Position numbers and translations under genes: made by a program
DNA from: Bryobacterales bacterium
Lineage (GTDB): Bacteria > Acidobacteriota > Terriglobia > Bryobacterales > UBA6623
Length of the DNA: 64,000 nt
Assembly: GCA_965248105.1 (NCBI GenBank)
Contig: CBDFIK010000006.1
Location: forward strand, 1,859,761 to 1,923,760
Direction: 5' to 3'
Notes under the pieces: generated by a model
The model's input: the letters and a program-made list of their open reading frames with translations, nothing else
The model's database searches: none
What the model was told of the DNA's origin: nothing
Shown: one piece after another, positions 10,115-44,104 of the stretch
Position numbering within the stretch: position 1 is the first letter of the stretch
How the letters are laid out: every line of letters starts with the position of its first letter

Positions 10115-10178
10115 TTACGGCGCATGGAGGAGTCTGGATTGGTTCAGAGCTACTGGAAGGACTCCGTCGCCGGGGGCC
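10115..10178 (+). repeat. 64-bp direct repeat, left copy, flanking IS21 copy 1
   Basis: TTACGGCGCATGG...GTCGCCGGGGGCC, identical to 12780-12843 by manual comparison. Confidence 0.95.
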
Positions 10179-10394
10179 TGTCAAGGGCGGAGCAAAATTA
10201 GACCAGTTCGGCGGAGGGAGAATAGACCAGTTTTGGGGTAGAGCGGCGGAGCAAAAATAGACCAGTGGGGGGGGAGTCGGGGTTTTGCTTCGAGTTTTTG
10301 TGGGACGGCTGGAACGCAGCCTGAGGTCGCCCGTTAGGGCGGCTGAAGGCGGAGTGGAAGGCGGCTCACAAAAACTGTGGCGAGCCGGCGGGGA

Positions 10395-11156
10395 TCAATC
10401 CGAAGACGGAGAGCGTTGCTTCTTGCTCTGCTTGAGGCGGAAGCTATCGCCGTTCATCTCCAGGATGTGGACGTGGTGAGTGAGCCGATCCAGCAGGGCG
10501 CCGGTCATGCGCTCGGACCCGAGGACTTCGGTCCACTCGTTGAACGGCAGGTTCGAGGTCACCATCGTGGAGCCCTGCTCGTAGCGCTGTGAGAAGGTTT
10601 CGAACAGCAACTCCGCTCCGGTCTTCGACAGCGGCACGTAGCCCAGTTCATCGACGATCAGCAGGTCTTGCTTGGCGAGCTGCTTTTGGGCCCTCAGCAA
10701 GCGCCGCTCATCACGGGCTTCCAGCAGCTCGTTGAGCAGCGCTGCGGCGGTAGTGAAGCGAACCCGATAGCCACCCTGGCAGGCCGCCAGTCCCAGCGCC
10801 AGAGCGAGATGCGTTTTCCCCGTGCCGGAGTTTCCTAGAGCCAACACGTTCTCGCGACGGTCGATGAACTCTCCGTGTGCCAGCTCGAGCACCAGCTTCT
10901 TGTTCAACTTGGGTAACGCCAGGAAGTCGAACGTATCAAGGGTTTTCGTGACCGGGAACTTGGCGGCCTTGATGCGCCGCTCGGTCGCTCGGCGTTCACG
11001 GTCGAGCAGTTCGAGCTCGGACAGTTGCAGCAGAAAGCGTCTCGCATCCAAGCCCTCCGTGGCGCACTGCCGTGCCACCTTGTCGTACTCGCGTAAGAAG
11101 GTCGGCAGCCGCAGTGCTTTCAGATGAGCTTCCAGCAGCAGTTTGGATCTCGCCAT
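10395..11156 (-). CDS. istB: IS21 helper AAA+ ATPase
   Basis: Walker A GNSGTGKT, Walker B LLIVDELGY, TSNLPF, ALLDRLTHH; ATG overlaps the istA stop (TGATG). Confidence 0.95.
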   Translation of the reverse strand: MARSKLLLEAHLKALRLPTFLREYDKVARQCATEGLDARRFLLQLSELELLDRERRATERRIKAAKFPVTKTLDTFDFLALPKLNKKLVLELAHGEFIDRRENVLALGNSGTGKTHLALALGLAACQGGYRVRFTTAAALLNELLEARDERRLLRAQKQLAKQDLLIVDELGYVPLSKTGAELLFETFSQRYEQGSTMVTSNLPFNEWTEVLGSERMTGALLDRLTHHVHILEMNGDSFRLKQSKKQRSPSSD

Positions 11157-12655
11157 CAGTCCACTCCCTGTGCCAGCAGCACCAAATAATCTGTTGTCGA
11201 TGTCTGTTCGACTTGTGCTGTGGGTAAGTGCGGATACTGCGTCAAGTCCAAGCGGGGCGGCCGTTGCTCGATCCGACACAGGACGAGGTGCTTGACGGCG
11301 TCGAAGCCGATCGTTCCCAACTCAACGGCCTGCCGCGCGGCGGCGGTGACGTCGGTGAGCGGGAAGTCTTCGAGTAAACGCAGCACCTGCACGTACTCGC
11401 GCTTGCCTGGTTTACCCAGCCGCACTTCGAGCAAGCGTCTCAAACGCACGAGATCTTGCGGTAACTGCCAACCGACGAGCGGCGCGGCTTGATCCAGCGC
11501 GTTCGTCTTGCGCTCCAGCAAGGCCAGGTAATGCAGCGGATCGAAGATCAACTCCTCGCGTTCGTAGCTGCGCCGATGCCGGGCGATCTCTTCGCTGCCG
11601 CAGCCGATGACCACCTCATCGACGTAAGCTCTCAGCAGTACTTCGCGGTGGCCGTAGCGCGTCGGAACCGAGTAGTCGTTGGTCCGATAGCGCACCAGCG
11701 ACAACGACGTCACCCGCGTCGTGCGCTTGTCGCAAGCGTCATACCCGACAGCAGGCAACGTCAGAAACGCCTGGCGGTCGCGCTCGAAACGCTCACCGAT
11801 CGTTTCCGAGTGTCGCCGCAAGCGCCGTCCACGGTTCTTGCGGCACTTCGCTTCGAGGTGTTCGTTGAAGGCTTCCCAACTTGAGAACCTGGGGATCGGC
11901 ACCATAAAGTTGCGCCGCGCATAGCCCACCAACCCTTCCACTTTGCCTTTGTCGTTGCCCTTGCCCGGCCGCCCGAAACGGTCGGCGAACAGATAATGTG
12001 ACTGCAGCTCGGAGAAGACACGGGTCCTCTGGCGTGTGCCGTCTCCCAGGATCCTCGCCACCGCTAGCTTCGTGTTGTCGTAGACGATGCTGCGCGGCAC
12101 GCCGCCAAAATAGCGAAACGCCGCATTGTGCCCCTCGCAGAATGCCTCCGTCGTCTCGGCCGGAAACGCTTTCACGAATGCGTCATCGCTATGCGGCAGA
12201 TCGACGACCAAGAAGTGCGCCTTGCGCTGCACTCCGTTGATGACGACGACCGCTTCGCCGAAGTCCGCCTGGGCGTCACCCGGCGGATGCGTCAGCGGCA
12301 CGAACATCTCTTGTCCGCCCAGCTTCTTCTCGCGTACGTAGTCCTTGACGGTCGTGTAGCCGCCTGTGAACCCGTACTCGTCGCGGAGGCGGTCAAAGAT
12401 GCGCTGTGCGGTGTGGCGTTGTTTCCTCGGACGCTCCCGATCGTCGGTCAGGATCTGATCGATGATCCCTGTGAAGGCCTCCAGTTTGGGACGCCTCGCC
12501 GGTTTGCTCCGCCGATAGCCCGGCGGAATCCGGTAGCGCAACATCTTGCGCACGGTCTCGCGAGCAATCCCAAAGCGCCGTGCTGCTTCGCGTTCGCTTA
12601 GCCCTTCGACGCAGACACTTCGTCGTACTTGAACGTATAGCTCCACCCGATACAT
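11156..12655 (-). CDS. istA: IS21 transposase
   Basis: N-terminal HTH, AQADFGEA, IVYDN, KGKVEGLVGY DDE motifs; start placed at ATG 12655 after GGAGG. Confidence 0.95.
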   Translation of the reverse strand: MYRVELYVQVRRSVCVEGLSEREAARRFGIARETVRKMLRYRIPPGYRRSKPARRPKLEAFTGIIDQILTDDRERPRKQRHTAQRIFDRLRDEYGFTGGYTTVKDYVREKKLGGQEMFVPLTHPPGDAQADFGEAVVVINGVQRKAHFLVVDLPHSDDAFVKAFPAETTEAFCEGHNAAFRYFGGVPRSIVYDNTKLAVARILGDGTRQRTRVFSELQSHYLFADRFGRPGKGNDKGKVEGLVGYARRNFMVPIPRFSSWEAFNEHLEAKCRKNRGRRLRRHSETIGERFERDRQAFLTLPAVGYDACDKRTTRVTSLSLVRYRTNDYSVPTRYGHREVLLRAYVDEVVIGCGSEEIARHRRSYEREELIFDPLHYLALLERKTNALDQAAPLVGWQLPQDLVRLRRLLEVRLGKPGKREYVQVLRLLEDFPLTDVTAAARQAVELGTIGFDAVKHLVLCRIEQRPPRLDLTQYPHLPTAQVEQTSTTDYLVLLAQGVD

Positions 12656-12779
12656 CCCTCCGGTGTTCCACAAAACACCTCGGGGATGCTTGCGGACCAC
12701 ATCAGCGGCTTGGTCCTCCGCCTCCTCTGGGAGCCTTCACACCGCCGCTATGTGGTCTAGTTTGTCAGCGCCGTTCTCA

Positions 12780-16986: not shown

Positions 16987-18228
16987 TTACGAAGGACCAG
17001 GAGGACCAGGAGGACCAGGAGGACCACAATCCCCAACTGCCTTGCGGGCATTCAGCCAAGCCTTTTTATACGATCCCACGGCTTCGTCGAAAAACATCCG
17101 AGCTAAGATGCCGACGGAGACACCGTCTGCCGTCAGCTGCTCGGCCATGGTGAAGTGAAACTTAGCCTGGAGAATATCGTTTGGGTCTCCCGTGGCGCCT
17201 TCGGCGTCCTGAATGGCGATCGCGGCGACGATATTGGCGGCCTGTAGAATCTTCCCAACGACGGTATCCTCCAGGTCCGCCAGGATGATGCTATCAAAGA
17301 TCCCGCCCTCATCGATGGCCGCGAAGATCGCCCCGACAGAGCCTTTCAAGGCCTGAAAGAACTTCTTCCCCACCTTGCAATCTTCGCCAAGAAGGCGGCA
17401 AGGATCGTCTGCCGGGAAGGCGTCCAGGCTGGAGTCGAGGCGAGCAATGGCCTCATCAAGACTTGCGATTGCTGCCTCCGAGTCCGCGACGCCGGAAAGG
17501 GCGGCCCCAATTGCCGCCTGGGTAGTGCCTAGGTCCGTGATGGCATCCTCGATCAGCCCTTTCGGCGTCGGCCCTGCCGAGGGATTTATGGTCACGTTTA
17601 TTGCTCCACGGGGATACGCGGCGGTAAAGCCCCCCCAGACGCAGTTGTCACTGACGAACCTGTCGCCCACGCCCAGGAAGAGGTGCGTGGCGCCGGAAGG
17701 GATTGTCACGCTGAAGCCGGTGGGCGTAAAGATCTGGAAATCTTCCGGGATGTCAGTCAGCTGTCCTGCACCAACGGGGTAAAACGTCACCGGCGTTTGC
17801 GCGTCGATCCCTGCGTCGATCGCGCCGGGAACCCGTTCTGCGAAGTCGGCGTCCTCCAGATCATTGGATTCACTGAAGACGCCCAGCAGCCCGGTTCCTT
17901 CTCCAAACGTGAACGTCTCGGTCGTACGGACCGGCAGGGCACCCAACAGGTCCGGACAACGGTAACTATAGCCGTATGGGGGATCGTCCGGGATTATCTC
18001 GAAGCTTATTTCCATCGTGGACCCGGGGACAAGTCCATTAGCCCCCAGATCAACGATCGCCGGAGGAGCCGGCACGTCCGGCTCTTCTCCGGGGCCCGAG
18101 GCTGAGTCGTTGGTGTGCAGATAGGTGCCTCTAGCATCCACGAGTACGGGAATGCTACCGGCCCCACTTGCCATGGAAACCGTTAATAGCCACAGGGTTG
18201 TAGTCGCAATTAGCGTTCGCGTCGACAT
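16987..18228 (-). CDS. Secreted hypothetical protein with C-terminal collagen-like (GPP)3 tail
   Basis: AGGAG RBS before ATG 18228; signal peptide MSTRTLIATTTLWLLTVSMASG; acidic beta-rich N-domain, helical C-domain; ends CGPPGPPGPPGPS*. Confidence 0.7.
   Translation of the reverse strand: MSTRTLIATTTLWLLTVSMASGAGSIPVLVDARGTYLHTNDSASGPGEEPDVPAPPAIVDLGANGLVPGSTMEISFEIIPDDPPYGYSYRCPDLLGALPVRTTETFTFGEGTGLLGVFSESNDLEDADFAERVPGAIDAGIDAQTPVTFYPVGAGQLTDIPEDFQIFTPTGFSVTIPSGATHLFLGVGDRFVSDNCVWGGFTAAYPRGAINVTINPSAGPTPKGLIEDAITDLGTTQAAIGAALSGVADSEAAIASLDEAIARLDSSLDAFPADDPCRLLGEDCKVGKKFFQALKGSVGAIFAAIDEGGIFDSIILADLEDTVVGKILQAANIVAAIAIQDAEGATGDPNDILQAKFHFTMAEQLTADGVSVGILARMFFDEAVGSYKKAWLNARKAVGDCGPPGPPGPPGPS
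16994..17025 (+). repeat. 9-bp tandem repeat (GGACCAGGA)3 encoding Gly-Pro-Pro on the minus strand
   Basis: Direct reading. Confidence 0.9.
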
Positions 18229-18290
18229 TTCTCTGCTCCTTGCGGGCGGGGGCCCTGCCATGAATTTATCACCCTCGGTACCAGAAAGTC

Positions 18291-18876: not shown

Positions 18877-18906
18877 AACAAGAAACCCGCCCGGTTAGGG
18901 GCGGGT
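18877..18906 (-). terminator. Probable intrinsic terminator after the radical SAM gene
   Basis: Stem ACCCGCCC/GGGCGGGT with 6-nt loop, followed on the minus strand by TTCTTGTT. Confidence 0.6.
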
Positions 18907-18947
18907 CTGAGGGGGAATTGGTGGCTTAAGGTGGCCTAAAGTGAAAC

Positions 18948-21107
18948 TCAATCTCCGCTGCAACCGACCAACGGCTGTTCTTGCGGGTTGGCTGCGGTTT
19001 CTTTTCCATTCGTCGCGCCGAGCTGGACTAATTTCGGAGCGGGCTTTTCTTTGAGCACCTGCTCGCGGTACATCTTGAGCAAGCGGGCCTCCTCTTCGGG
19101 TGAGAGGATCGCGTTCTTGCCGTTGCCATTGCCGTTCCCCTTGCTGACGCCCTGGGAACCGTTGTGGCCGTCGCTCTGTTCCTGTTCCTTTAAGCTGGCG
19201 GCCAGTTTGGTCTTCTCGAGAATCTTCTCGTCGCGGGCATTCTGCGGACCCGCGGACTGCTGAGCCTCGCGGGCTGCGTCCTCGGCATTGACCTGAAGGT
19301 AGCCGGCCGGGGCATCGACCTCGACCGCGCGGCCACCGGCGTAAATCTTGTGCCGGCCGTGCTGGTCGTACCATTTACTCAAAGTAGCAGTCATGTGCAT
19401 TTTCTCAATGATGTTACGCCAGCCGACGCCGGTGTTATAGGCGCAGAAGGAAATCTCGCCCTCCTGAGTGCCGTAGGGAATGATGCACATTTCCGTCCGC
19501 CGGAAGTCGTAGTTGAACAGGTCCTGAAACCACATGCCGGCGACAAACAGGAAGTTCCAGGGATCGTTACGGCGCGCCACACCCTTACCATAGTTCTTGC
19601 CACTCAGCCCAAACGATTTGTCGAACTTCCTGAGCAGCGCCAACAAATCGAAGCTCCTGGGAGCTTTGTAGGGGTCGTAGTTCTTCAGTAGGGCCAAACC
19701 CATCTGCAGGTTGCTGAGCCAAGGCGAGCGTCCCGAGTCTGTCACCTTGCGAATGTCCTGCACGAACTGTGGCACGTTGATGAACTCCGCCACGGGCGCC
19801 ATTTCCTTGGTGTTCTTGTTGATCATCAAGGCGGTCCCTACACCGCAGTTGGGATGACAACCGCAGTTCACCTGTCCCCATTGCGCCTCAGGCCCGTGGG
19901 CAGCATCCGCCGCATCGACGAAGGAAGACATCACTGAAATTGGGAACCAGTCGCGATTGGGCTCGGTGATGCCTAACTGCGATTTGACGTCACGAGCCAG
20001 GTGCGAAAGAGTGTAGCGTTGCCGCAGCCGCCGTTCGTCGGTAATTTCCTCGTCACGCCCCGTAAACGACACCGGCTGGAAAGAGATGAAGGCGATCTTG
20101 CCGGGGTTATTGCGGGCGAAGTCAATGATCGGCCCAACCTCTTCGTTGTTCACGTTGTTGACCAACGTGGTGACCAAGACGACCTCGGTGCCGGCACTGT
20201 GCAGGCTCTCAATGGCCTTCAGCTTGACATCGAAGAGGTTGCCGACCTTGCGGTGCGAGTTAGGGGCATTCCCAATGCCGTCGAACTGCAAATAGGCGTA
20301 ACGCAAGCCGGCGTCGGCCGCTACCTCGGCAAACTTCTTGTTCTTGGCGAATTCAATGCCGTTGGTGGCCGCCTGTACACTGTTGAATCCGATCGAGCGG
20401 GCATAGCGAACCGCCTGGATAAAAAACGGCGACATCGTCGGCTCGCCGCCGGAGAATTGAACCGACAACTGACGGCGAGGTTTGATCTTCAGCGCATTGT
20501 CAAGGACCGTTTTGATCTCGTCCCATTCCAGTTCATGGACGAAGCCGACCTGGTTGGCGTCCATAAAACATGGGTCGCACATCATGTTGCAGCGGTTCGT
20601 CAAATCGACAGTGAGCACAGCGCCGCGACCGAACTTAACGGTACTACTGCCGTGATTGTGAAGATCCCGGTCGTTGTGAGCACGGATATCGCGGCCCGGG
20701 AAATTCGACTCGATGTGCTCGAGGAATTTCGAGTCGATGGCCATCAAATCTTCGATACGGCCGTGCGTGGGGCAGTCCTTGACCATCCAGATCTGCCCGT
20801 CTCGCTCCAGGATGGTGGCCTTGACTTCGCCGACCTTCTTCTCCTTGAGGACCGTGTACGGCACCTCACCGCTGAGGATCTTTTCACGCGCTTCCCTGAC
20901 ACACTTGGGGCACAGGGAGTCGGTTTGCCGGGGCCAGCCCAAGGGCGGCTTACTCTTCTCCCACGACTTGAGCATTGGCTTGTCCGACCAATTCGGCTTG
21001 AATGACGGGTCGGCTTCTATCTTCTGATTAAAGTACTGCAAGCCGCGCCACATACCCGCCGCGACCCTCGTCATGCCCTTCTCTACGTACTTGATTGGCC
21101 TCTGCAT
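18948..21107 (-). CDS. Radical SAM protein of the Tes / GDGT-macrocyclase (MJ0619-like) family
   Basis: TDSLCPKC...KDCPTHG N-terminal metal site, DLTNRCNMMCDPCF CxxxCxxC, QFSGGEPT, AATNG, YLQFDG, ISFQPVSFTGR, CGCHPNCG and CIIPY...SFCAYN auxiliary motifs. Confidence 0.85.
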   Translation of the reverse strand: MQRPIKYVEKGMTRVAAGMWRGLQYFNQKIEADPSFKPNWSDKPMLKSWEKSKPPLGWPRQTDSLCPKCVREAREKILSGEVPYTVLKEKKVGEVKATILERDGQIWMVKDCPTHGRIEDLMAIDSKFLEHIESNFPGRDIRAHNDRDLHNHGSSTVKFGRGAVLTVDLTNRCNMMCDPCFMDANQVGFVHELEWDEIKTVLDNALKIKPRRQLSVQFSGGEPTMSPFFIQAVRYARSIGFNSVQAATNGIEFAKNKKFAEVAADAGLRYAYLQFDGIGNAPNSHRKVGNLFDVKLKAIESLHSAGTEVVLVTTLVNNVNNEEVGPIIDFARNNPGKIAFISFQPVSFTGRDEEITDERRLRQRYTLSHLARDVKSQLGITEPNRDWFPISVMSSFVDAADAAHGPEAQWGQVNCGCHPNCGVGTALMINKNTKEMAPVAEFINVPQFVQDIRKVTDSGRSPWLSNLQMGLALLKNYDPYKAPRSFDLLALLRKFDKSFGLSGKNYGKGVARRNDPWNFLFVAGMWFQDLFNYDFRRTEMCIIPYGTQEGEISFCAYNTGVGWRNIIEKMHMTATLSKWYDQHGRHKIYAGGRAVEVDAPAGYLQVNAEDAAREAQQSAGPQNARDEKILEKTKLAASLKEQEQSDGHNGSQGVSKGNGNGNGKNAILSPEEEARLLKMYREQVLKEKPAPKLVQLGATNGKETAANPQEQPLVGCSGD

Positions 21108-21584
21108 TCGAAACTATCTCCTCGATCGAGTCGTTTCTGGAAGACCGGCAATTGCGCCCCACATGCTTGTGAACACACTCCTCGCTCGGCGACAGGGTGC
21201 ACTCGGCCTTCCCGATAGCTTACGCAACATCGCTTAGGACTGCCTACCAGAAATCGCTGAACGGGTCTAATCGTAACCTGGATGGTAGTTTTCTCGGTTA
21301 AACGGACGTTGCAGTTCTTGCAAGTATAGGAAAACATTACCTGATAGAGTGCTTTCCTTACGGCAATCATCGAGCCGATTCGAGGAAGCTGAAAACCGCG
21401 CGATGATCTCCGAACCCAATATGCCGCCCGTTGGGAAGCTGTTCTCAGAACTATAGTCCTTCCGTGCAAACCATGTGTGATCTGTCTTACCTTCGCTCGC
21501 CCCGGGTGAGATGTCGTAACGGAACCCTCGGCCTTTCGGCGGTAAATTCGTTGTGTTCAGGAGAGGAGAGGGTGTACCATGTAG

Positions 21585-21791
21585 CAGCCGAAGGTCCAAA
21601 TCGGAAATTCCGGCTGGTTGCAAAAGGCAGCGGAACAGGACTCGGCGCACGCTCAGTACAATTTAGCGCTGAAGTATGCACGAGGGCAAGGGGTGCCGAA
21701 GGATTACGTCCTTGCCTACGTTTGGTCAAAAAATGTAGTATCCAAAGGCACAACTGAAATTGCTGATAACGCGTCAGCAGAGGCGGTTTAA
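21585..21791 (+). pseudogene. Sel1-like repeat gene remnant
   Basis: Manual translation includes WLQKAAEQDSAHAQYNLALKYARGQGVPKDYVLAYVW; the in-frame ATG at 21579 is followed immediately by TAG. Confidence 0.55.
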
Positions 21792-21909
21792 TCCGACTGG
21801 AACGGCGCTGCGTGAGTTGCCAGAGTATCGGACTTGCTCCAAGCTCCACCCGACAGGCCCCTCTGCTGGGGCAAATCCATTCCATAGATTTGGATAAAAG
21901 GAGGTAGCA

Positions 21910-25093: not shown

Positions 25094-26026
25094 TTGGCGG
25101 ATTCCAATCCAATCATTCGCGTCCGTAGCCTCACGAAGAGTTACGGCTCCCTCGAAGCGGTCAGAGGCATCGACTTCGAAGTCCGCGCGGGCGAGGTATT
25201 TGGACTTCTAGGTCCGAATGGCGCCGGCAAGACGACGACGGTCGAGATCCTGGAGGGGCTGCGGCCACGTACTTCCGGGGAGGTTGCCGTTCTGGGATTC
25301 GATCCCGCCACACAGAGTGCCCAACTCAAGGACCAAATTGGTGTTTGCCTACAATCCACCAACTTGCCTGACAAGATCCAAGTAGTTGAAGCGATGGAGC
25401 TGTTCGCGAGCTTCCACAGCCGGAGCCTGGATATCGCGGAGCTGCTGGGAAGGCTGCAACTTTGGGAACGGCGCCGTCAGTACTACTCAACTCTTTCCGG
25501 CGGACAGAAACAGCGACTCGTGTTAGCCATGGCCCTGCTTAACGACCCCCAGGTTCTTTTTCTCGACGAGCCGACTGCGGGCCTCGATCCGCAAGCGCGC
25601 CGCGAAATCCACGGTCTCATTTCAAAACTGCGAAGAGAAAAGCGGACGATCTTACTCACTACCCATTACATCGAGGAAGCCGAGAAGCTGTGTGATCAAG
25701 TTGCCATCATCGACGACGGTAAGATCATCTCGACCGGCACCCCTCAGGAAATCCAGAACCGCACGCTGGGCCACAGCGTCATTGAGATCCGTTGCGAGAC
25801 ACCTTTGCCCGACGGGGACCTCCCTCACTGGCCCGACTCAGACGCCGCCTCGTTCAATGAAGATCGAACTCATCTTTCGGTGGCCACCGACCATCCGGCT
25901 CGGACTTTGGTCGAAATCGTGCGCTGGATTGACCAACACGGTGTTGATTTGGCGGATGTTCGCTTGAAGAGACCCTCACTGGAAGACGTCTTCATCGAGT
26001 TGACGGGAAGGAGCCTGCGGGAGTGA
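25094..26026 (+). CDS. ABC exporter ATP-binding protein
   Basis: GPNGAGKTT, LSGGQKQR, LFLDEPTAGLD, LLTTHY. Confidence 0.93.
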   Translation: MADSNPIIRVRSLTKSYGSLEAVRGIDFEVRAGEVFGLLGPNGAGKTTTVEILEGLRPRTSGEVAVLGFDPATQSAQLKDQIGVCLQSTNLPDKIQVVEAMELFASFHSRSLDIAELLGRLQLWERRRQYYSTLSGGQKQRLVLAMALLNDPQVLFLDEPTAGLDPQARREIHGLISKLRREKRTILLTTHYIEEAEKLCDQVAIIDDGKIISTGTPQEIQNRTLGHSVIEIRCETPLPDGDLPHWPDSDAASFNEDRTHLSVATDHPARTLVEIVRWIDQHGVDLADVRLKRPSLEDVFIELTGRSLRE

Positions 26027-28224
26027 AACCCTATTTGGCTCTCATCAAGATCGACCTCAAGCTCGCCTACCGTCAACCGGTTGTGATCTTTTTCACCTAC
26101 CTCTTTCCACTGCTGTTTTTCTTTGGGTTCGCGGAGCTACTACGCGTCAAGCAGGGCGGCACGATCTCTTACGTCGTCAGTATGGTTCTGGTGCTGGGGA
26201 TCCTTGGCAACGGTCTTTTCGGCGCCGGCATGCGAACGGTTCAGGAGCGAGACAACAACATCCTGCGGCGCTTTCGGGTGGCGCCCATCACTCCGACTCC
26301 CCTGTTGGTGGCGTCGACGTTTACCGGTTGGCTTATTTACATGCCGGCTGTGTTGTTGATCTTGTTGCTGGCCCACTTTATTTACGAGATGCCGGCTCCC
26401 GACAGCACGATGTCGCTGCTGGTTCTCGTCTCGTTGGGCGTGATGTCATTCCGAGCTATCGGGTTGATTGTGGCGTCGGTCGTCAACTCGATGCAAGAGA
26501 GCAATATCTTCATCAATCTGCTCTACCTTCCGATGCTCTTGCTGAGCGGAGCGACTTTCCCGATCACACTCCTGCCCGAAGTCGTGCAGTATATCGCGCA
26601 GTTTGTACCTGCGTCGTATCTGGTGAGCGGTTTCCAAGGGATTTTCTTGCGCGGCGAGTCTCTTCGGGACATTTGGGCTTCCGCGGCCGCCTTAGCGATT
26701 ACGCTCGTGGTCGGTTTGTTTCTCTCGCGACAGCTGTTCCGCTGGGATAAGGAAGAGAAGATTCGTCAGGCCGCGAAGCTGTGGGTGTTGGCCGTGCTGG
26801 CCCCATTTTTCTTACTGGGGAGCTACCACATCTACAGCCGCGAACACATAAAGAAAGCCGAGGCGTTGTGGCGCAGCCTGCAGCGCTCTGAAAAGCTGCT
26901 CATCCGCGACGCGCGCATTTTTACGGGCGATGGCCGAGTCATTGAATCCGGATCCGTGCTCATCGAAAACGGCAAGATCGGCCGGGTGTACGAGGACGAG
27001 ACTCCCGACCTAGAGCACCTCAACGCTATGGTCATTGAAGCGTCCGGGAAAACGTTGCTGCCCGGGCTGATCGACATGCACGTTCACCTCGCAGCGCCGG
27101 GGGGTTCCTACTCCGAGCCGCCGCGGACAGCGTCGCCTGAAAAAGCAATGGGGCGCGCCCTGGCTTCCTACCTTTATTGTGGGATCACCGCTGTCAAAAG
27201 CGTCGGCGATCCGCTCGGCATGTCCCTCAGCTTGCGTGAGGAAGTCAGTCGCGCCGAGCGTCTAGGGGCGCAGTTGTTCGCCTGCGGACCTCTCTTCACG
27301 ACTCCCGGCGGTCACGGAACCGAGTACCTCAAAGAGCTCCCGGACCCCTGGCGCGACATCGCCGAGAAAGAACTGTTGCGGCTGCCCGGGGATCCGGAGG
27401 AGGCGCGCCGGCAGGTGCGTGAGCTAAAGCGGGCAGGGGCAAACGGAATCAAAGCGGTCCTCGAGACCGGGCAAGCCGGGATGCTGTTCGAGCGAATGGA
27501 CATCACGGTGTTGCGAGCGATCGCTGAGCAGGCCCGGACCGAAGAGCTGCCACTGGTTGTCCACACGGGCAGCGCGGCAGATATCTCGGACGCTCTCGAC
27601 GCCGGAGCTGAAGGCATAGAGCACGGAACCTACCGGGAAACGATTCCCGACGAGTTGCTTGCCCGCATGGCCGAGCACCGTACGGCGTACTCTCCGACGC
27701 TGAGCGTGATTGAGGCTCTTTCCGAGCTTGCTGCGGGAAGCGGCCGGCTCTTGGGCCGCACGCTGGTGCAACAAGTCGGTCCCCGCGGCCTGCTCGACGG
27801 CACGCGAGAAGGTTTGTTGCGAGGAGGGCTGCCGGAGCGGGTTGCGCGCGTCGAGAATTGGGCTCGGGCGCTCGATCTGGCGAAGGAAAACCTGCGACGG
27901 GCCTACGAGGCCGGCGTTCCGCTGGTCGCGGGCTCCGATGCCGGAAATCCTCTTGTGATCCACGGGCCGACCGTCCACCGCGAACTCCAGCTTTGGGTCG
28001 AAGCCGGCATCCCGCCTCACGTCGCCCTGCAAGCGGCGACCCATAACGCCGCCATCTTGCTGCGGGCCGAGAACCGGATCGGTTCCATTCGACCCGGCAA
28101 CGATGCCGACTTGCTACTGGTTAACGGCAATCCCCTCGACGACATCAGCGCTACTGAGCGGATCTCTCTCGTGGTCTTCAAAGGCGAGCGCATCAAACGG
28201 TCAGCTTTGTTTCAACAAAAATAG
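26023..28224 (+). CDS. ABC-2 permease fused to a metal-dependent amidohydrolase
   Basis: About 270-aa multi-TM ABC-2 domain (RERDNNILRRF, LLSGATFP), then LPGLIDMHVH, GIK, VVH, IEHG, AGSDAG, GSIRPGNDADLLLV in one continuous frame. Confidence 0.88.
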   Translation: MKPYLALIKIDLKLAYRQPVVIFFTYLFPLLFFFGFAELLRVKQGGTISYVVSMVLVLGILGNGLFGAGMRTVQERDNNILRRFRVAPITPTPLLVASTFTGWLIYMPAVLLILLLAHFIYEMPAPDSTMSLLVLVSLGVMSFRAIGLIVASVVNSMQESNIFINLLYLPMLLLSGATFPITLLPEVVQYIAQFVPASYLVSGFQGIFLRGESLRDIWASAAALAITLVVGLFLSRQLFRWDKEEKIRQAAKLWVLAVLAPFFLLGSYHIYSREHIKKAEALWRSLQRSEKLLIRDARIFTGDGRVIESGSVLIENGKIGRVYEDETPDLEHLNAMVIEASGKTLLPGLIDMHVHLAAPGGSYSEPPRTASPEKAMGRALASYLYCGITAVKSVGDPLGMSLSLREEVSRAERLGAQLFACGPLFTTPGGHGTEYLKELPDPWRDIAEKELLRLPGDPEEARRQVRELKRAGANGIKAVLETGQAGMLFERMDITVLRAIAEQARTEELPLVVHTGSAADISDALDAGAEGIEHGTYRETIPDELLARMAEHRTAYSPTLSVIEALSELAAGSGRLLGRTLVQQVGPRGLLDGTREGLLRGGLPERVARVENWARALDLAKENLRRAYEAGVPLVAGSDAGNPLVIHGPTVHRELQLWVEAGIPPHVALQAATHNAAILLRAENRIGSIRPGNDADLLLVNGNPLDDISATERISLVVFKGERIKRSALFQQK

Positions 28225-34009: not shown

Positions 34010-34315
34010 GTGTACCTCAACGCCGCCGGGCCTGGATTCGCTCTGTCGCTCCCCTGCCTTGATTTCTTCATGACGTCGCCCAGCAATCGGCTGGGAGCCG
34101 GAGATCCCGATCGGCATCCGAGAATCCGCGGGGCCCGCGGAGTTTTGCAACCTAAACATCGCCGCGACCTGGCGGTCTGCCGCCTGCGCCGAATTCCGCT
34201 CGGTAGGTGTCGCCGGGAACGAAAGCTGCGCGGTAAACCTTTGTCGCCGGGGACTAAAGCTGCTCGGCAAAAGGACGATCAGTTTAGCAGGCTGGAGCGG
34301 TGCCCGAATAAGCGC

Positions 34316-37093
34316 ATGGACGAGACGCAGGAAATCATTAAAGAATTCTTGATCGAAAGCAATGAGAATCTGACTCAGCTCGATCAAGAATTCGTCGAGC
34401 TTGAGCAACGACCCAACGACCAGACCCTTCTGTCAAGCATTTTCCGCACGATCCACACCATCAAGGGAACTTGCGGTTTTCTGGGATTCGGGATCCTCGA
34501 GGCGATCACCCATCGTGCCGAAAACATGCTCAGCCAGTTGCGCGAGGGCCAGCGCCGGCTGACCCCGGGACTGACGACGCTGCTGCTGGAAACGGTGGAT
34601 ATTGTCAAGAATATCTTGGCGGAGATCGAGACGAGCGGCGCCGAGGGCTCGGAGACCTACGACGAGCTATGTAACAGACTGCAAGCTGCCTGCGACGGAC
34701 AGGACCCCGAGGAACCTGCGGTCAGGGAAGCGTCCCTCGGGAATCGGAGCGAAGATCAGGTCGATCCCAGCGAGCCGACGAGGGATGCCGCCGGGCAAAC
34801 TCCAGCGGCTGAACCCTTCCAGGGCGAGCCGCAGCCGGAGCCAACCTCTCAAGACGCGGGAGAATCGGCCGAGCCGGTAACCACAGCGGCGGAATCCACT
34901 GCGGGCGAAGCCCCGACTGAAGCGAGCCAACTCGACGAAGCGGCCCCCCCCAAGGAATCTGTGGCCGGCGCCCGTAAGGCCCCGGCTGAGACCCGCAGTT
35001 CGGTCGCCGACTCGACGATCCGTGTTCCCGTCGGTGTTCTGGACAAATTGATGAACTTGGTGGGCGAGCTGGTGCTGGCCCGCAATCAAGTTCTGCAGCA
35101 CACCACCACGCAAGAAGACGCCGGCCTCACGGCCACCTCACAGCGGCTGAACTTGATCACGACCGAGCTGCAGGCGAACGTCATGAAAACCCGCATGCAG
35201 CCCATCGGGGTCGTCTGGAACAAGTTTCCCCGCGTCGTGCGCGACCTGGGGCACGCCGCGGGCAAGCAGATTGACCTCGAAATGGAAGGTGCCGAGACCG
35301 AACTTGACAAGACAATCATCGAGGCCATCAAAGACCCGCTGACCCACATCGTTCGCAACTCCTGTGATCACGGCATCGAGACGCCGGAACAGCGCGCCGC
35401 CAAGGGCAAGCAGGCACGCGGCAGGCTGACCATGCGCGCCTATCACGAGGGCGGACAGGTGAACATCGAAATTGCCGACGACGGTGCCGGCATCAATCCC
35501 CAAAAACTGAAACAAAAGGCCGTTCAAAAGGGGCTTGTCCCGGTCGATCAGGCCGAGCGCATGAGCGAGCGCGAGATGCACAATCTCATCTTCCTCCCTG
35601 GCCTGTCGACGGCGCAGAAAGTGACCAACGTCTCCGGACGCGGCGTCGGCATGGACGTGGTCAAGACCAACGTTGAAAAGATCGGCGGCTCGATCGATCT
35701 ACAGAGCGCAGCGGACAAAGGGACGACGATCAAAATCAAGATTCCGCTAACTCTGGCGATCATTCCAGCCTTGGTCGTGAGCTGTGCCGAGGAGCGCTTT
35801 GCGATTCCTCAAGTCAATCTGGTCGAGCTGGTCAGGCTGGAGGGGGGCGCAAACAGCCAGCAGATCGAGTGGATTCACGGTGCTCCGGTCTATCGGCTGC
35901 GGGGCAAGCTCTTACCCCTCGTGTACCTCAGCAAGGTTCTGGAGTTGGACGGGGCGGGGCTTGACGAAAAGGATCCCGAAAGGACCGAAGAACCCGTCAA
36001 CATCATCGTGTTGCAAGCGGATGACAAAACTTTCGGACTCGTCGTCGATGGCGTTAACGACACGGCGGAGATTGTCGTCAAGCCGCTCAGCAAACTACTC
36101 AAGGGCCTGAACTGCTACGCGGGGGCAACCATTATGGGCGACGGCAGGGTCGCCCTGATTCTCGACGTGATGGGTCTTGGCCAACTGGCGCACGTCGTCA
36201 GTCAGACGCGTGAGCAGACCCACGTGGCGCGCGAACACCAGGCCGACCTTGTCGCCGAACGACAAACCGTCCTGCTGTTCCGTAGCGGGTCGGCCGAGCG
36301 GCTGGCGGTGCCTCTGGCATTGGTCGATCGGTTGGAGGAGTTTCCGCACTCGCAGATCGAACAGTCTGGGGGCCGACGAGTTACCCAGTACCGGAATCAG
36401 ATCCTACCGCTGATCCCTTTGGCGGAACTGCTCAGCCTGGGGGACTCGGCGGCGGAAACGCAGGACCCCGTTCAGGCGGTCGTCTTCAGCGAAGGCGCGC
36501 GGCGGATGGGAGTCGTCGTCGATGAGATCGTCGACATTGTCGAGGAAAACATCTCCATTCGCAGTCGGACCAGCCGGCAAGGCATTCTTGGGTCGGCGGT
36601 GGTAAGCGGCAACGTGACGGATTTTATCGACCTTCACTATCTGATCGAGGCCGCTGACAAGAACTGGTTTGGCGGCAGCCAAGACGAACGGGCCGAGGGA
36701 GCGAGGGTATTGGTGGCCGAAGGGTCCTCGTTCTCACGCGGGCTGATGCGGAATTCCCTCGAGATGGCCGGCTTTCGAGTGATCGAGGCGGGCACCACCG
36801 CCGAAGTCCTCGACAAGCTCAAACAGCAAAGCGTCGATGTGATGGTTTCGAGCCTCGACTTGCCGGGCGACGGCCCCTCCGATCTTCTGGCCAGCATTCG
36901 TGTGGCGCCGGATTTGTGCGGCTTGCCGATCCTCGGCCTAGCCAATACCGCCGAAGAAACCCACCCACCGCCGGGCGCGGAGTATCAATTCGACGATTGC
37001 CAGTTGAAGTTTGATCGGGACTCGATGCTGCGCTCGGTGGAAAAGCTCGCCGCGGTCGTGACCAACCGGCAGCCCGTCGAACAAAGAGGCTAG
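34316..37093 (+). CDS. cheA: Chemotaxis histidine kinase (Hpt, dimerisation, HATPase, 2x CheW, C-terminal receiver-like domain)
   Basis: IFRTIHTIKG, LMNLVGELVLARNQ, HIVRNSCDHGIE, DDGAGI, SGRGVGMDVV, GTTIKIKIPLTLAI; start placed at ATG 34316. Confidence 0.95.
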   Translation: MDETQEIIKEFLIESNENLTQLDQEFVELEQRPNDQTLLSSIFRTIHTIKGTCGFLGFGILEAITHRAENMLSQLREGQRRLTPGLTTLLLETVDIVKNILAEIETSGAEGSETYDELCNRLQAACDGQDPEEPAVREASLGNRSEDQVDPSEPTRDAAGQTPAAEPFQGEPQPEPTSQDAGESAEPVTTAAESTAGEAPTEASQLDEAAPPKESVAGARKAPAETRSSVADSTIRVPVGVLDKLMNLVGELVLARNQVLQHTTTQEDAGLTATSQRLNLITTELQANVMKTRMQPIGVVWNKFPRVVRDLGHAAGKQIDLEMEGAETELDKTIIEAIKDPLTHIVRNSCDHGIETPEQRAAKGKQARGRLTMRAYHEGGQVNIEIADDGAGINPQKLKQKAVQKGLVPVDQAERMSEREMHNLIFLPGLSTAQKVTNVSGRGVGMDVVKTNVEKIGGSIDLQSAADKGTTIKIKIPLTLAIIPALVVSCAEERFAIPQVNLVELVRLEGGANSQQIEWIHGAPVYRLRGKLLPLVYLSKVLELDGAGLDEKDPERTEEPVNIIVLQADDKTFGLVVDGVNDTAEIVVKPLSKLLKGLNCYAGATIMGDGRVALILDVMGLGQLAHVVSQTREQTHVAREHQADLVAERQTVLLFRSGSAERLAVPLALVDRLEEFPHSQIEQSGGRRVTQYRNQILPLIPLAELLSLGDSAAETQDPVQAVVFSEGARRMGVVVDEIVDIVEENISIRSRTSRQGILGSAVVSGNVTDFIDLHYLIEAADKNWFGGSQDERAEGARVLVAEGSSFSRGLMRNSLEMAGFRVIEAGTTAEVLDKLKQQSVDVMVSSLDLPGDGPSDLLASIRVAPDLCGLPILGLANTAEETHPPPGAEYQFDDCQLKFDRDSMLRSVEKLAAVVTNRQPVEQRG

Positions 37094-37099
37094 AGAACG

Positions 37100-37573
37100 A
37101 TGAGCGATGCTCCGGGGTCAAGAAGCGAATTAGGCGATGGAAAGACGCGGCAGTACGCTACGTTTTTCGTCAGCGATCTGTTCTTCGGCGTAGAAGTGCT
37201 CAACGTCCAAGAAGTGCTGCGTTATCAGGAGATGACTCGAGTTCCCCGCGCCGACAATGTCATCGAGGGGCTGATCAATCTGCGGGGCCAGATCGTGACG
37301 GCATTCGACATGCGCAGCCGTTTACAACTCGGCGAGCGGCAGACAGGTGAGACACCGATGAACGTCGTCGTGCGCACCGAGGACGGCGCGGTGAGTTTAC
37401 TGGTGGACGAGATCGGCGACGTCATCGAGGTCAGTGAAGAGAACTTCGAGCGTCCTCCGGAGACGATTACCGAGCTAGCCCGAGAGACCCTCGAGGGGGT
37501 CTACAAGCTGGACGATCGCCTGTTGCTGGTGCTTTCGACGGATCGAGTGCTGCAGCTGAATTCGAGGAACTGA
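37100..37573 (+). CDS. cheW: Chemotaxis coupling protein
   Basis: FFGVEVLNVQEV, GLINLRGQIV, SLLVDEIGDV. Confidence 0.93.
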   Translation: MSDAPGSRSELGDGKTRQYATFFVSDLFFGVEVLNVQEVLRYQEMTRVPRADNVIEGLINLRGQIVTAFDMRSRLQLGERQTGETPMNVVVRTEDGAVSLLVDEIGDVIEVSEENFERPPETITELARETLEGVYKLDDRLLLVLSTDRVLQLNSRN

Positions 37574-43752: not shown

Positions 43753-44104
43753 TCCCCGCCGGCTCGCCACAGTTTTTGTGAGCCGCCTTCCACTCCGCCT
43801 TCAGCCGCCCTAACGGGCGACCTCAGGCTGCGTTCCAGCCGTCCCACAAAAACTCGAAGCAAAACCCCGACTCCCCCCCCACTGGTCTATTTTTGCTCCG
43901 CCGCTCTACCCCAAAACTGGTCTATTCTCCCTCCGCCGAACTGGTCTAATTTTGCTCCGCCCTTGACAGCGATCGATCAAATGGTGAATGCACTGGAAGC
44001 CGGCGCCAATGAATACGTGATGAAGCCCTTCACCAAGGAGATTATTCAAGACAAGTTGCGGCTCTTGGGATTGTTGAACTAGTCTCGAACCCCAATCGGG
44101 GCTT

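What the first reader, a model, noticed from the sequence alone, without database searches (positions are those of the whole stretch)
18948..21107. Bacterial Tes-like radical SAM enzyme: candidate for membrane-spanning (branched GDGT) lipid synthesis
Seen: N-terminal CPxC...CPxHG site, CxxxCxxC, CGCHPNCG and CIIPY...FCAYN motifs. Established: this architecture marks the archaeal tetraether synthase Tes/GDGT-MAS (MJ0619) family, which couples lipid tails; homologues are reported in a brGDGT-producing acidobacterium, and the bacterial pathway is not fully resolved. As I recall the archaeal sequences, they have a GCPxDCGLC segment before the SAM motif, whereas this protein has a His-rich stretch (AHNDRDLHNHG) plus N- and C-terminal extensions. 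That suggests a distinct subfamily with a remodelled metal site. The function is inference.
Basis: partly seen in the sequence, partly recalled or inferred. Interest (0 to 1): 0.72.

Follow-up and report, generated by a model that had tools for sequence, protein, structure and literature searches.

The report
Long acidobacterial paralogue of tetraether synthase
This soil-bacterium gene encodes a relative of the archaeal enzyme that welds two lipid tails into a membrane-spanning lipid. It belongs to a large sister branch, mostly acidobacterial, that has lost one iron-sulfur cluster, and it is a known but still untested candidate for making the bacterial lipids used as palaeoclimate proxies.

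Summary

- 31% identity to MJ0619.
- AlphaFold model with pLDDT 86.5; Foldseek TM 0.87-0.88 to 7TOL/7TOM.

It is not a Tes equivalog. It scores 318 bits against an NCBIfam cut-off of 450. It falls in a separate clade (100% NJ bootstrap), called Group II here.

Group II keeps the rubredoxin-type site, the radical-SAM cluster and the catalytic C-terminal cluster residues (C421, C541, C555, Met525, Tyr545). It has no cysteines where Tes binds its N-terminal [4Fe-4S] cluster; a conserved HxHG loop sits there instead. It also adds an amphipathic N-terminal helix, a 22-residue zinc-ribbon insert and a C-terminal tail.

The clade is abundant and highly conserved in Acidobacteriota subdivisions 1, 3, 4 and 6. 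It has no conserved gene neighbours.

By length and BLAST statistics it matches Acid_2410, the second Tes homologue already tabulated for the brGDGT producer Solibacter usitatus. So the candidate is already in the literature. The split from canonical Tes and the lost cluster were not found described in the papers searched.

A role in coupling iso-C15 tails into iso-diabolic or brGDGT skeletons remains inference.

The parts
18948..21107 (-). Complete CDS of 719 aa plus stop: a long (Group II, Acid_2410-type) paralogue of tetraether synthase
   Evidence: ORF. Pfam PF23545 plus PF04055. NCBIfam Tes model 318 bits, below the 450 cut-off. PDB 7tol_A E=2.6e-63. AlphaFold model pLDDT 86.5. Foldseek TM 0.87-0.88 to 7TOM/7TOL. 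dN/dS 0.07-0.16.
20928..21107 (-). N-terminal extension, residues 1-60, absent from MJ0619. Includes helix 4-29, the most amphipathic stretch of the protein. A membrane-surface or packing role is inferred.
   Evidence: Conserved from residue 1 in Group II. Modelled as a helix with pLDDT above 90. muH is 0.60 against a protein mean of 0.24 and sd of 0.12; there is no transmembrane segment.
20739..20927 (-). Rubredoxin-type zinc-ribbon domain, residues 61-123. Ligands are C66, C69, C112 and H115, with a 22-residue helical insert between the two half-sites.
   Evidence: PF23545. The four ligand positions are invariant in 54 of 54 Group II and essentially all Group I sequences. MJ0619 has C9x2C12x20C33x2H36. 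The long spacing occurs in 239 of 240 clade members checked.
20628..20687 (-). His-rich loop, residues 141-160 (AHNDRDLHNHGSST), in the position of the [4Fe-4S]N cluster-binding loop of Tes. It contains no cysteine.
   Evidence: In the alignments, MJ0619 C77, C80 and H83 align with H152, S155 and K158, and C73 aligns with no cysteine. There are 0 Cys in the 50 aa before the SAM motif in 192 clade sequences, which carry a conserved (L/V)HxHG(S/T)S.
19974..20618 (-). Radical-SAM core, residues 164-378, with C173-x3-C177-x2-C180 (nt 20568-20591) and the GGEP SAM-binding motif (G220-P223)
   Evidence: PF04055 E=1.4e-16. The cysteines and GGEP are invariant.
19353..19973 (-). C-terminal auxiliary-cluster and lipid-pocket domain, residues 379-585. 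C421, C541, C555 and Met525 are equivalents of the [4Fe-4S]C site; Tyr545 matches Tyr459. C415 and C417 are characteristic of Group II.
   Evidence: One search aligns Met525 with Met439, Tyr545 with Tyr459, and C421/C541/C555 with C338/C456/C470 of MJ0619. Roles of Met439, Tyr459 and [Fe4S4]C come from PMC9433317. Which cysteines are the ligands is inferred.
18948..19352 (-). C-terminal extension, residues 586-719 plus stop: a low-complexity linker, a conserved helix (M/L)YRExVL(K/G)E, and a conserved extreme C-terminus x-G-D
   Evidence: Absent from MJ0619 and Group I. The tail motifs are conserved in both the Bryobacterales-like and the subdivision-1 sets. Residues 655-665 and 690-719 have pLDDT below 50.
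18883..18908 (-). Terminator-like hairpin (10-bp stem, 7 GC pairs, T-rich tail) 40 nt downstream of the stop codon, suggesting a monocistronic gene
   Evidence: The next gene downstream is absent from the closest relative, L001.
21108..21909 (-). 802-bp upstream intergenic region, up to a divergently transcribed SPFH/Band-7 gene. It presumably holds the promoter and 5' UTR, but no element was identified.
   Evidence: No Rfam match at E<=1. No sigma-70 consensus. The proximal 430 bp are 78% identical to L001.

Best explanation
The gene encodes a radical-SAM enzyme of the Tes/GDGT-MAS fold. It belongs to a separate bacterial sister clade centred on Acidobacteriota, called Group II here; by length and BLAST statistics this is the Acid_2410-type long paralogue of Solibacter usitatus.

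Shown here:
- It retains the SAM-cleaving [4Fe-4S] cluster motif and the rubredoxin-type site.
- It retains equivalents of the residues around the catalytic C-terminal [4Fe-4S] cluster: three conserved Cys, the labile Met and the active-site Tyr.
- It lacks every cysteine of the surface N-terminal [4Fe-4S] cluster. A conserved HxHG loop sits there instead.
- It carries an amphipathic N-terminal helix, a zinc-ribbon insert and a C-terminal tail.

Inferred by analogy with GDGT-MAS: 5'-deoxyadenosyl radical abstracts H from the terminal methyl carbon of a glycerolipid tail. The carbon radical is parked as a C-S bond on the C-terminal cluster. A second SAM-derived radical on a second tail attacks that carbon, giving a C(sp3)-C(sp3) bond.

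In Acidobacteria the likely substrates are iso-C15 acyl or alkyl chains of phospholipids. The product would be the C30 iso-diabolic skeleton of membrane-spanning tetraesters and, after ester-to-ether conversion, brGDGTs. Electrons would reach the enzyme without the N-terminal cluster relay.
For: Homology and fold:
- PDB 7tol_A E=2.6e-63 and 31% identity over 509 aa.
- Model pLDDT 86.5 and pTM 0.85. Foldseek TM (target-normalised) is 0.87-0.88 over about 540 columns; the highest value among the other listed hits is 0.68, over about 240 columns.

Catalytic residues conserved: RS Cys in 54/54, C421 50/54, C541 50/54, C555 52/54, Met525 51/54, Tyr545 50/54. The mechanism of the characterised relative is in PMC9433317.

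Purifying selection: dN/dS is 0.07-0.16. Subdivision-1 orthologues are 84-94% identical across more than 120 clusters.

Phyletic pattern:
- At least 593 genomes (one per species in that collection) carry it. The 80 loci listed are mostly Bryobacterales (SD3), Terriglobia including cultured Acidipila rosea (SD1), Pyrinomonadaceae, Blastocatellia and Chloracidobacterium (SD4), and Vicinamibacterales (SD6), with some Gemmatimonadota.
- Those are the subdivisions reported to make iso-diabolic acid. That lipid makes up 12-30% of fatty acids in the Edaphobacter strains compared.

Literature:
- Edaphobacter aggregans, a brGDGT-Ia producer, is reported to have a single Tes homologue at 32% identity and 4e-61. 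Those are Group II statistics; compare, where Group II gives 27-34% and e-51 to e-92 (P0126 intermediate at e-92), and Group I gives 35-49% and e-103 to e-178.
- S. usitatus has Acid_2410, 714 aa, 30.1% identity, 4e-62.
- No mss homologues were found in the acidobacterial genomes screened by Sahonero-Canavesi et al., so another coupling enzyme is needed.
Against: - No papers found in these searches report an activity test of an acidobacterial Tes homologue. I could not read Chen et al. 2025, which a 2026 paper cites for Tes involvement in tetraester synthesis.
- The protein fails the curated Tes equivalog threshold and lies outside the clade holding the characterised enzymes.
- It lacks one of the four metallocofactors of GDGT-MAS.
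- S. usitatus and Koribacter also carry a canonical (Group I) homologue. That one could be the real coupling enzyme in those organisms.
- S. usitatus has an Acid_2410-type gene yet no detectable iso-diabolic acid.
- The clade also appears in MAGs labelled Gemmatimonadota, Eisenbacteria and Betaproteobacteria. I am not aware of reports of such lipids from these groups.
- No conserved lipid-pathway gene neighbours exist.
Confidence: 0.6

Rival explanations
1. The fold and radical chemistry are the same, but the job is different. Group II enzymes would modify lipid or other hydrophobic tails in another way, and the canonical Group I Tes homologue would be the true tail-to-tail synthase. Possible alternative jobs are only the second ring-closing coupling (GTGT to GDGT), a different carbon position, a cross-link, or a non-membrane lipid.
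For: - Group II is a distinct clade with 100% bootstrap and scores below the equivalog cut-off.
- The active-site surroundings are altered: W526 replaces His, M540 replaces Arg, and C415 and C417 are added.
- Two paralogues coexist in S. usitatus.
- S. usitatus lacks iso-diabolic acid despite having the long paralogue.
- The clade is present in phyla I am not aware of being reported to make these lipids.
Against: - E. aggregans makes iso-diabolic acid and brGDGT-Ia, yet is reported to have one Tes homologue, with Group II-like statistics.
- Group II is widespread and 84-94% conserved in subdivision 1. There iso-diabolic acid is a major lipid, and no mss was found in the genomes screened.
- All residues tied to the coupling chemistry in GDGT-MAS are kept.
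Confidence: 0.27
2. It is a true Tes orthologue (equivalog) that makes archaeal-type isoprenoid GDGTs in a bacterium.
For: The best family hit is NF045702 and the best structure hit is GDGT-MAS. Some JGI records name clade members 'tetraether lipid synthase'.
Against: - It scores 318 bits against a 450 cut-off.
- It lacks the [4Fe-4S]N ligands and sits in a sister clade.
- Zeng et al. wrote in 2022 that no bacterium was known to produce isoprenoid GDGTs.
Confidence: 0.03
3. It is a 7,8-dihydro-6-hydroxymethylpterin dimethyltransferase (HMPTM) for methanopterin-type cofactor synthesis, as the Pfam domain name and many JGI annotations imply.
For: The Pfam domain is called Zn_ribbon_HMPTM. JGI names many members HMPTM.
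Against: The annotation comes from the older assignment of MJ0619. Lloyd et al. could not reproduce that assignment, and they showed MJ0619 is a lipid synthase. No cobalamin or methyltransferase domain is present.
Confidence: 0.02
4. It is a degenerate, non-catalytic relic of Tes kept for a structural or regulatory role.
For: One cofactor site has been lost. Some divergent relatives have lost further sites: P0129 of Terriglobus roseus, P0139 and P0168 lack C-terminal cluster cysteines, and P0134 lacks the SAM motif.
Against: This protein and its core clade keep the SAM cluster motif, GGEP, and the C-terminal cluster Cys, Met and Tyr. They are under strong purifying selection.
Confidence: 0.03

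Closest known systems
GDGT-MAS / tetraether synthase Tes of Methanocaldococcus jannaschii (MJ0619; PDB 7TOL, 7TOM) and other archaeal Tes (MA_1486, Maeo_0574)
   Same: - Whole-protein fold, with TM 0.87-0.88.
- Rubredoxin-type CX2C...CX2H site and radical-SAM CX3CX2C motif.
- C-terminal cluster domain with equivalents of Met439 and Tyr459 and three conserved Cys.
- Presumably the same C(sp3)-C(sp3) coupling chemistry through a cluster-bound C-S intermediate (inference from PMC9433317).
   Different: - 31% identity.
- No C73/C77/C80 triad, so no N-terminal [4Fe-4S] cluster as in Tes.
- A 22-residue insert in the zinc ribbon, a 60-residue N-terminal extension and a 134-residue C-terminal extension.
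- W526 in place of His and M540 in place of Arg, plus the added C415 and C417.
- Below the NCBIfam equivalog cut-off.
- The bacterial host has fatty-acid lipids, not isoprenoid ones.
Canonical (Group I) bacterial Tes homologues, such as Acid_5929 of S. usitatus (545 aa, 40% identity, 1e-139 to MA_1486) and the Koribacter versatilis homologue
   Same: Same superfamily, also found in Acidobacteria, and the same proposed role in brGDGT or tetraester synthesis. In the one Group I locus examined (P0175), the gene also stands alone with no obvious lipid operon.
   Different: - Group I representatives keep the CPxxCGxCxxH cluster motif and the short ribbon, are about 500-550 aa long, and pass the Tes cut-off at 474-593 bits.
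- Group I shows 35-49% identity to MJ0619; Group II shows 27-34%.
- The two groups separate with 100% bootstrap.
Acid_2410 (Q025C7, 714 aa), the second Tes homologue of Solibacter usitatus Ellin6076, and the single Tes homologue of Edaphobacter aggregans
   Same: - Length: 714 aa against 719 aa.
- BLAST statistics to archaeal Tes: 30.1% and 4e-62, and 32% and 4e-61, against 31% and 2e-60 for this protein versus MJ0619.
- The window is from a Bryobacterales genome. S. usitatus belongs to subdivision 3; equating Bryobacterales with subdivision 3 is my own knowledge.
- These proteins are very probably orthologues (inference; I could not retrieve their sequences).
   Different: Nothing known. Neither protein has been characterised, and the papers found treat them simply as Tes homologues without noting the missing cluster.
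Membrane-spanning lipid synthase Mss of Thermotoga maritima and Thermoanaerobacter ethanolicus
   Same: A radical-SAM enzyme shown to couple fatty-acid tails into diabolic acids when expressed in E. coli. Its modelled catalytic architecture resembles that of Tes. This is the function proposed here, but in anaerobes.
   Different: Protein BLAST with an archaeal Tes query found no homologue in the two Mss-containing organisms, and no mss homologues were found in the acidobacterial genomes screened. This protein is clearly Tes-related. No Mss sequence was available to compare directly.

Membership tests
Tes / GDGT-MAS (NCBIfam NF045702 equivalog; PDB 7TOL) | Radical-SAM CX3CX2C cluster motif and GGEP SAM-binding motif | tested here: met
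   C173, C177, C180 and G220-P223 are invariant. PF04055 E=1.4e-16.
Tes / GDGT-MAS (NCBIfam NF045702 equivalog; PDB 7TOL) | N-terminal rubredoxin-type mononuclear site, CX2C...CX2H | tested here: met
   C66, C69, C112 and H115 are invariant. The spacing is 42 residues instead of 20. PF23545 E=3e-14.
Tes / GDGT-MAS (NCBIfam NF045702 equivalog; PDB 7TOL) | N-terminal auxiliary [4Fe-4S] cluster ligated by C73, C77, C80 and a conserved His | tested here: not met
   No Cys lies between residues 113 and 172. In the alignments, C77, C80 and H83 correspond to H152, S155 and K158. 192 clade sequences have 0 Cys in this region.
Tes / GDGT-MAS (NCBIfam NF045702 equivalog; PDB 7TOL) | C-terminal auxiliary [4Fe-4S] cluster with a labile Met ligand (Met439), and a conserved active-site Tyr459 | tested here: met
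   Met525 and Tyr545 align with Met439 and Tyr459. C421, C541 and C555 are conserved in both groups. Which cysteines ligate the cluster is inferred, not read from the structure.
Tes / GDGT-MAS (NCBIfam NF045702 equivalog; PDB 7TOL) | Overall four-domain fold | tested here: met
   Foldseek gives TM (target-normalised) of 0.87-0.88 and 28-29% identity over 541-547 columns, from a model with pLDDT 86.5.
Tes / GDGT-MAS (NCBIfam NF045702 equivalog; PDB 7TOL) | Score at or above the curated equivalog cut-off (450 bits) | tested here: not met
   318.4 bits. Other Group II representatives score 219-414 and Group I representatives 474-593.
Tes / GDGT-MAS (NCBIfam NF045702 equivalog; PDB 7TOL) | Phylogenetic placement within the clade that contains characterised enzymes | tested here: not met
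   In an NJ tree on 485 columns with 200 bootstraps, the split between Group II and Group I plus MJ0619 has 100% support. The tree is unrooted and the method is simple.
Tes / GDGT-MAS (NCBIfam NF045702 equivalog; PDB 7TOL) | Two hydrophobic lipid-binding pockets leading to 5'-dA and the C-terminal cluster | tested here: inconclusive
   The C-terminal domain, with its amphipathic helices, is modelled confidently and superposes on 7TOL.
Tes / GDGT-MAS (NCBIfam NF045702 equivalog; PDB 7TOL) | Tail-to-tail C(sp3)-C(sp3) coupling activity on glycerolipids | not testable with these tools
   This needs expression or in vitro assays. No paper found in these searches reports such a test for an acidobacterial homologue.
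   All these features are present in the query. Among 240 clade members: long ribbon 239, HxHG 235, CxCHxxCG 240, GMWFQD 231. Most C-termini end in GD.
Radical SAM (seleno)protein TrsS (NF045646) | Score at or above the cut-off of 490 bits | tested here: not met
   197.8 bits, covering only residues 94-378.
Mss membrane-spanning lipid synthase (Thermotoga type) | Sequence homology to Tmari_0825 or WP_129545148.1 | not tested
The literature reports no mss homologues in the acidobacterial genomes screened.

The most novel reading that the evidence does not exclude
Group II, not the canonical Tes homologue that has drawn attention, is the general acidobacterial synthase for the iso-diabolic and brGDGT carbon skeleton. 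On this reading it is a Tes lineage adapted to largely aerobic hosts. It has discarded the surface-exposed, His-ligated N-terminal [4Fe-4S] cluster and gained an amphipathic N-terminal helix and a docking tail. The earlier conclusion that Acidobacteria must use an unrelated, convergent pathway (Tes homologues in only 3 of 14 iso-diabolic-acid producers under stringent cut-offs) would then be an artefact of those thresholds missing this roughly 30%-identical clade.
Probability: 0.4. Interest if true: 0.75.

Novelty: new member of a known kind. Interest (0 to 1): 0.45.

Why it matters
brGDGTs are among the most widely used terrestrial palaeotemperature and pH proxies. Yet in the papers found here, the enzyme that joins the two iso-C15 tails in Acidobacteria has not been demonstrated.

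This work shows that "bacterial Tes homologues" are really two families with different cofactor content. The long, cluster-less family is the one found across acidobacterial subdivisions 1, 3, 4 and 6. That sharpens which gene to test.

It also bears on genome and metagenome screens for brGDGT producers. These should use separate models for the two groups. The usual cut-offs (identity above 30%, E below 1e-50) fall right on this clade's values, so such screens can count or miss it erratically.

For enzymology, the clade is a natural experiment on whether the N-terminal cluster of GDGT-MAS is needed for catalysis.

Tried and rejected
- **Gene neighbourhood.** I compared the window's neighbours with 80 related loci and clustered all neighbouring ORFs de novo. 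No partner is conserved across lineages. A surE-pcm-dedA run downstream, in about 20 loci, looks like lineage synteny of housekeeping genes (annotated by eye from the sequences). The apparent radical-SAM neighbour cluster was a single-linkage artefact; the L069 gene is a lone rSAM-methyltransferase fusion. The contexts of P0024 and of Group I representative P0175 are also unrelated to lipids.
- **Rest of the window.** I scanned it for ether-lipid or GDGT-modifying genes (PlsA/Ger, Elb, Grs, Gms) with Pfam and found none. There is no second Tes-like gene in the window.
- **Regulatory RNA.** Rfam at E<=1 on 16.5-24.5 kb found nothing. No sigma-70 consensus lies upstream.
- **Organism names.** I tried to obtain names for homologues, to correlate with lipid phenotypes in cultured strains. 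Three cluster look-ups gave almost none, apart from Terriglobus roseus for a divergent paralogue.
- **Missing sources.** Table S21 of Sahonero-Canavesi et al. is not held. Chen et al. 2025 (GCA 401:190) is not in the library.
- **Rejected readings.** The HMPTM and TrsS annotations were considered and rejected.
- **Not possible.** I could not measure lipid pockets or the geometry of the His-rich loop, because model coordinates are not exposed.
Full report
**The gene.** Window 18948-21107 on the minus strand is an ATG-initiated ORF of 719 codons. Pfam finds an N-terminal zinc ribbon of the MJ0619 type (PF23545, residues 59-123) and a radical-SAM domain (PF04055, residues 169-331).
- C66-PK-C69 and C112-PT-H115-G
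- C173-x3-C177-x2-C180
- C415-G-C417-HPN-C421-G
- C541-IIPY545 and F-C555-AYN
- the His-rich A-H144-NDRDL-H150-N-H152-G

The gene is real and under constraint. Homologues at 98% down to about 60% identity number in the thousands. dN/dS against four orthologues is 0.07-0.16. The N-terminal extension is conserved from residue 1, so the annotated start is right. A strong terminator-like hairpin lies 40 nt after the stop codon.

**Source organism.** The closest genomes are Bryobacterales MAGs, at 93% amino-acid identity to L001. The window therefore probably comes from a subdivision-3 acidobacterium (inference).

**Relationship to Tes.** The best solved-structure relative by sequence is GDGT-MAS (MJ0619, 7TOL): E=2.6e-63 and 31% identity over about 500 residues. 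An AlphaFold model built on a 68-sequence alignment is confident (pLDDT 86.5, pTM 0.85). Foldseek against the PDB puts 7TOM and 7TOL far ahead of everything else: target-normalised TM is 0.87-0.88 over about 540 columns, while no other listed hit exceeds 0.68 and those cover only about 200-370 columns. At fold level this is a Tes-type enzyme.

**What is kept and what is lost.** Lloyd et al. (PMC9433317) describe four metal sites in GDGT-MAS:
- a rubredoxin-type iron, C9x2C12x20C33x2H36
- a surface N-terminal [4Fe-4S] cluster on C73, C77, C80 and a His
- the radical-SAM cluster
- a C-terminal [4Fe-4S] cluster with a labile Met439, next to the strictly conserved Tyr459; this cluster holds the substrate as a C-S adduct during coupling

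I mapped these sites through the HMMER and MAFFT alignments and counted residues in 54 clade members and 14 canonical sequences.
- The rubredoxin ligands (C66, C69, C112, H115) and the SAM-cluster cysteines are invariant.
- C421, C541 and C555 are conserved in both groups, and so are Met525 (equivalent to Met439) and Tyr545 (equivalent to Tyr459).
- The N-terminal cluster triad is gone. C77, C80 and H83 correspond to H152, S155 and K158, and C73 aligns with no cysteine.
- In a census, 192 of 192 clade sequences covering the region had no cysteine in the 50 residues before the SAM motif. They carry a conserved (L/V)HxHG(S/T)S...GRG.VLT.DLTNRC instead.

Characteristic of this clade are C415 and C417 (C417 also occurs in half of Group I), W526 (His in canonical Tes), M540 (Arg in canonical Tes), and three additions: a 22-residue helical insert in the zinc ribbon, a 60-residue N-terminal extension and a 134-residue C-terminal extension. 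Helix 4-29 in the N-terminal extension is the most amphipathic segment of the protein. The C-terminal extension has a conserved helix and a conserved x-G-D end. There is no transmembrane segment.

**Two families, not one.** Sequences with the CPxxCGxCxxH motif are called Group I here. This group includes MJ0619 and bacterial representatives such as P0175, which sits on a clearly bacterial contig. Group I differs from the query's clade, Group II, on three measures:
- NCBI's curated Tes equivalog cut-off is 450 bits. The five Group I representatives tested score 474-593. The query scores 318 and other Group II representatives 219-414.
- Identity to MJ0619 is bimodal. Group I gives 35-49% with E of 1e-103 to 1e-178. 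Group II gives 27-34% with E of 1e-51 to 1e-92, with P0126 intermediate at e-92.
- A neighbour-joining tree on 485 well-aligned columns separates the two groups in 200 of 200 bootstraps. The tree is unrooted and the method is simple, so I claim only the split and not its direction.

**Distribution and context.** The best 80 are mostly Bryobacterales, Terriglobia (including cultured Acidipila rosea DSM 103428), Pyrinomonadaceae, Blastocatellia, Chloracidobacterium and Vicinamibacterales. Several MAGs labelled Gemmatimonadota, and single ones labelled Eisenbacteria, Betaproteobacteria and Clostridia, also appear. A second search seeded with the Acidipila protein returned more than 120 clusters at 84-94% identity. 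The few that carry names are from Edaphobacter, Terracidiphilus, Angelobacter, Korobacteraceae and other Acidobacteriaceae, and some clusters hold thousands of soil-metagenome members. This looks like a core, highly conserved acidobacterial gene.

It has no conserved neighbours:
- The window's flanking genes are shared only with the nearest relative. These are a divergent SPFH gene upstream and, downstream, an unknown secreted protein that even L001 lacks.
- De novo clustering of neighbours across 80 loci gives only lineage-level synteny.
- Other contexts are unrelated to lipids.
- No ether-lipid or GDGT-modifying genes lie in the 64-kb window.

**What the literature already says.**
- Zeng et al. 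2022 reported 456 bacterial Tes homologues and proposed a role in brGDGT synthesis. They noted Koribacter (42% identity, 1e-149), S. usitatus (40%, 1e-139) and a single homologue in Edaphobacter aggregans (32%, 4e-61).
- Chen et al. picked S. usitatus because of its 40% homologue.
- Halamka et al. list two S. usitatus homologues: Acid_5929 (545 aa, 40.2%, 1.4e-139) and Acid_2410 (714 aa, 30.1%, 4.2e-62). They propose that one or both act as the condensing enzyme.
- By length and statistics, Acid_5929 is Group I, while Acid_2410 and the E. aggregans protein are Group II. This is inference, because I could not retrieve those sequences. The window protein is very probably the orthologue of Acid_2410.
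- Sahonero-Canavesi et al. found the unrelated Mss in anaerobes. In the Acidobacteria they screened they found no mss, and Tes homologues in only 3 of 14 iso-diabolic-acid producers under stringent criteria. They suggested an alternative, convergent pathway.
- A 2025 metagenome study states that the role of bacterial Tes homologues has not been experimentally confirmed, and an August 2026 review describes them only as detected bioinformatically.
- A 2026 paper cites Chen et al. 2025 for two things: that Tes is involved in synthesis of diabolic tetraesters, and that tetraesters occur in Koribacter (Tes only) while brGDGTs occur in S. usitatus (Tes plus Ger). I could not read that paper.
- I found no paper that distinguishes the two groups or notes the missing cluster.

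**Most likely function.** The catalytic apparatus that GDGT-MAS uses for tail coupling is intact. The family is found across the subdivisions that make iso-diabolic acid: SD1, 3, 4 and 6. That lipid makes up 12-30% of fatty acids in the Edaphobacter strains compared. The brGDGT-Ia producer E. aggregans appears to have only this type. I therefore consider a tail-to-tail C-C coupling synthase for iso-C15 lipid tails the best explanation, at confidence 0.6. The mechanism is inferred from GDGT-MAS and not shown.

Four points argue for caution:
- The protein lies outside the characterised clade and lacks one cofactor.
- Canonical paralogues coexist in S. usitatus and Koribacter.
- S. usitatus has the long paralogue but no detectable iso-diabolic acid, although its brGDGTs contain the same skeleton.
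- The clade also occurs in phyla I am not aware of being reported to make these lipids.

The main rival is a related but different lipid-tail reaction, for example a division of labour between the two paralogues (confidence about 0.27). Loss of the surface His-ligated cluster might reflect adaptation to oxygen or to a different electron donor. That idea is speculation.

**Verdict.** The useful additions here are the clean two-family split, the demonstration that the long family lacks the N-terminal cluster while keeping the catalytic one, and the phyletic argument that this family deserves priority in experiments. Interest is moderate (0.45).

Noticed in passing
window 10178-12779 and 41368-43969: Two 2602-bp IS21-family copies (istA 514 aa plus istB 294 aa), 100% identical and in inverted orientation. 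They bracket a 28.6-kb segment that includes the Tes-like gene. The second copy sits between CheA and a PAS-MCP gene (34010-40696) and CheB and CheR (44105-46097), so it appears to split a chemotaxis cluster. This looks like recent IS activity, and the segment could invert by recombination.
   Followed up: partly
window 16987-18261 (minus strand): A 424-aa protein with a hydrophobic, signal-peptide-like N-terminus and a C-terminal GPPGPPGPPGPS. It has no Pfam match. The roughly 2.1 kb that carries it is missing from the closest relative, L001, where the Tes-like gene is followed almost directly by the histidine kinase.
   Followed up: partly
P0129 (Terriglobus roseus DSM 18391, WP_014786616.1), P0139, P0168, P0134: A divergent subclade of Group II. 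P0129, P0139 and P0168 have also lost C-terminal cluster cysteines: the C421 and C541 equivalents in all three, and C555 as well in P0129. P0134 lacks the radical-SAM CxxxCxxC motif. These are possible degenerate or repurposed paralogues, and at least one is in a cultured subdivision-1 strain.
   Followed up: partly
window 18948-19352 (residues 586-719) and homologues: The C-terminal extension is mostly low-complexity. It contains a conserved helix, (M/L)YRExVL(K/G)E, and an extreme C-terminus ending in x-G-D. Both are conserved in the Bryobacterales-like and the subdivision-1 proteins, which suggests a docking or autoregulatory tail.
   Followed up: partly
window 26023-28224 (plus strand): A single 733-aa ORF fuses an ABC-2 type permease with an amidohydrolase domain. 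It lies downstream of an ABC ATPase gene (25094-26026).
   Followed up: no
window 57469-62913: A DDE transposase, a TraG/TrwB-like coupling protein (785 aa) and a T2SSE-family ATPase lie at the right end of the window. This may be part of an integrated mobile element.
   Followed up: no
L069 5233-7776: In a Vicinamibacterales genome, the gene just upstream of the Tes-like gene encodes an 847-aa protein. By eye (no domain search was run on it) it looks like a radical-SAM/SPASM-like domain fused to a SAM-methyltransferase-like domain. The arrangement was seen only in this locus.
   Followed up: partly
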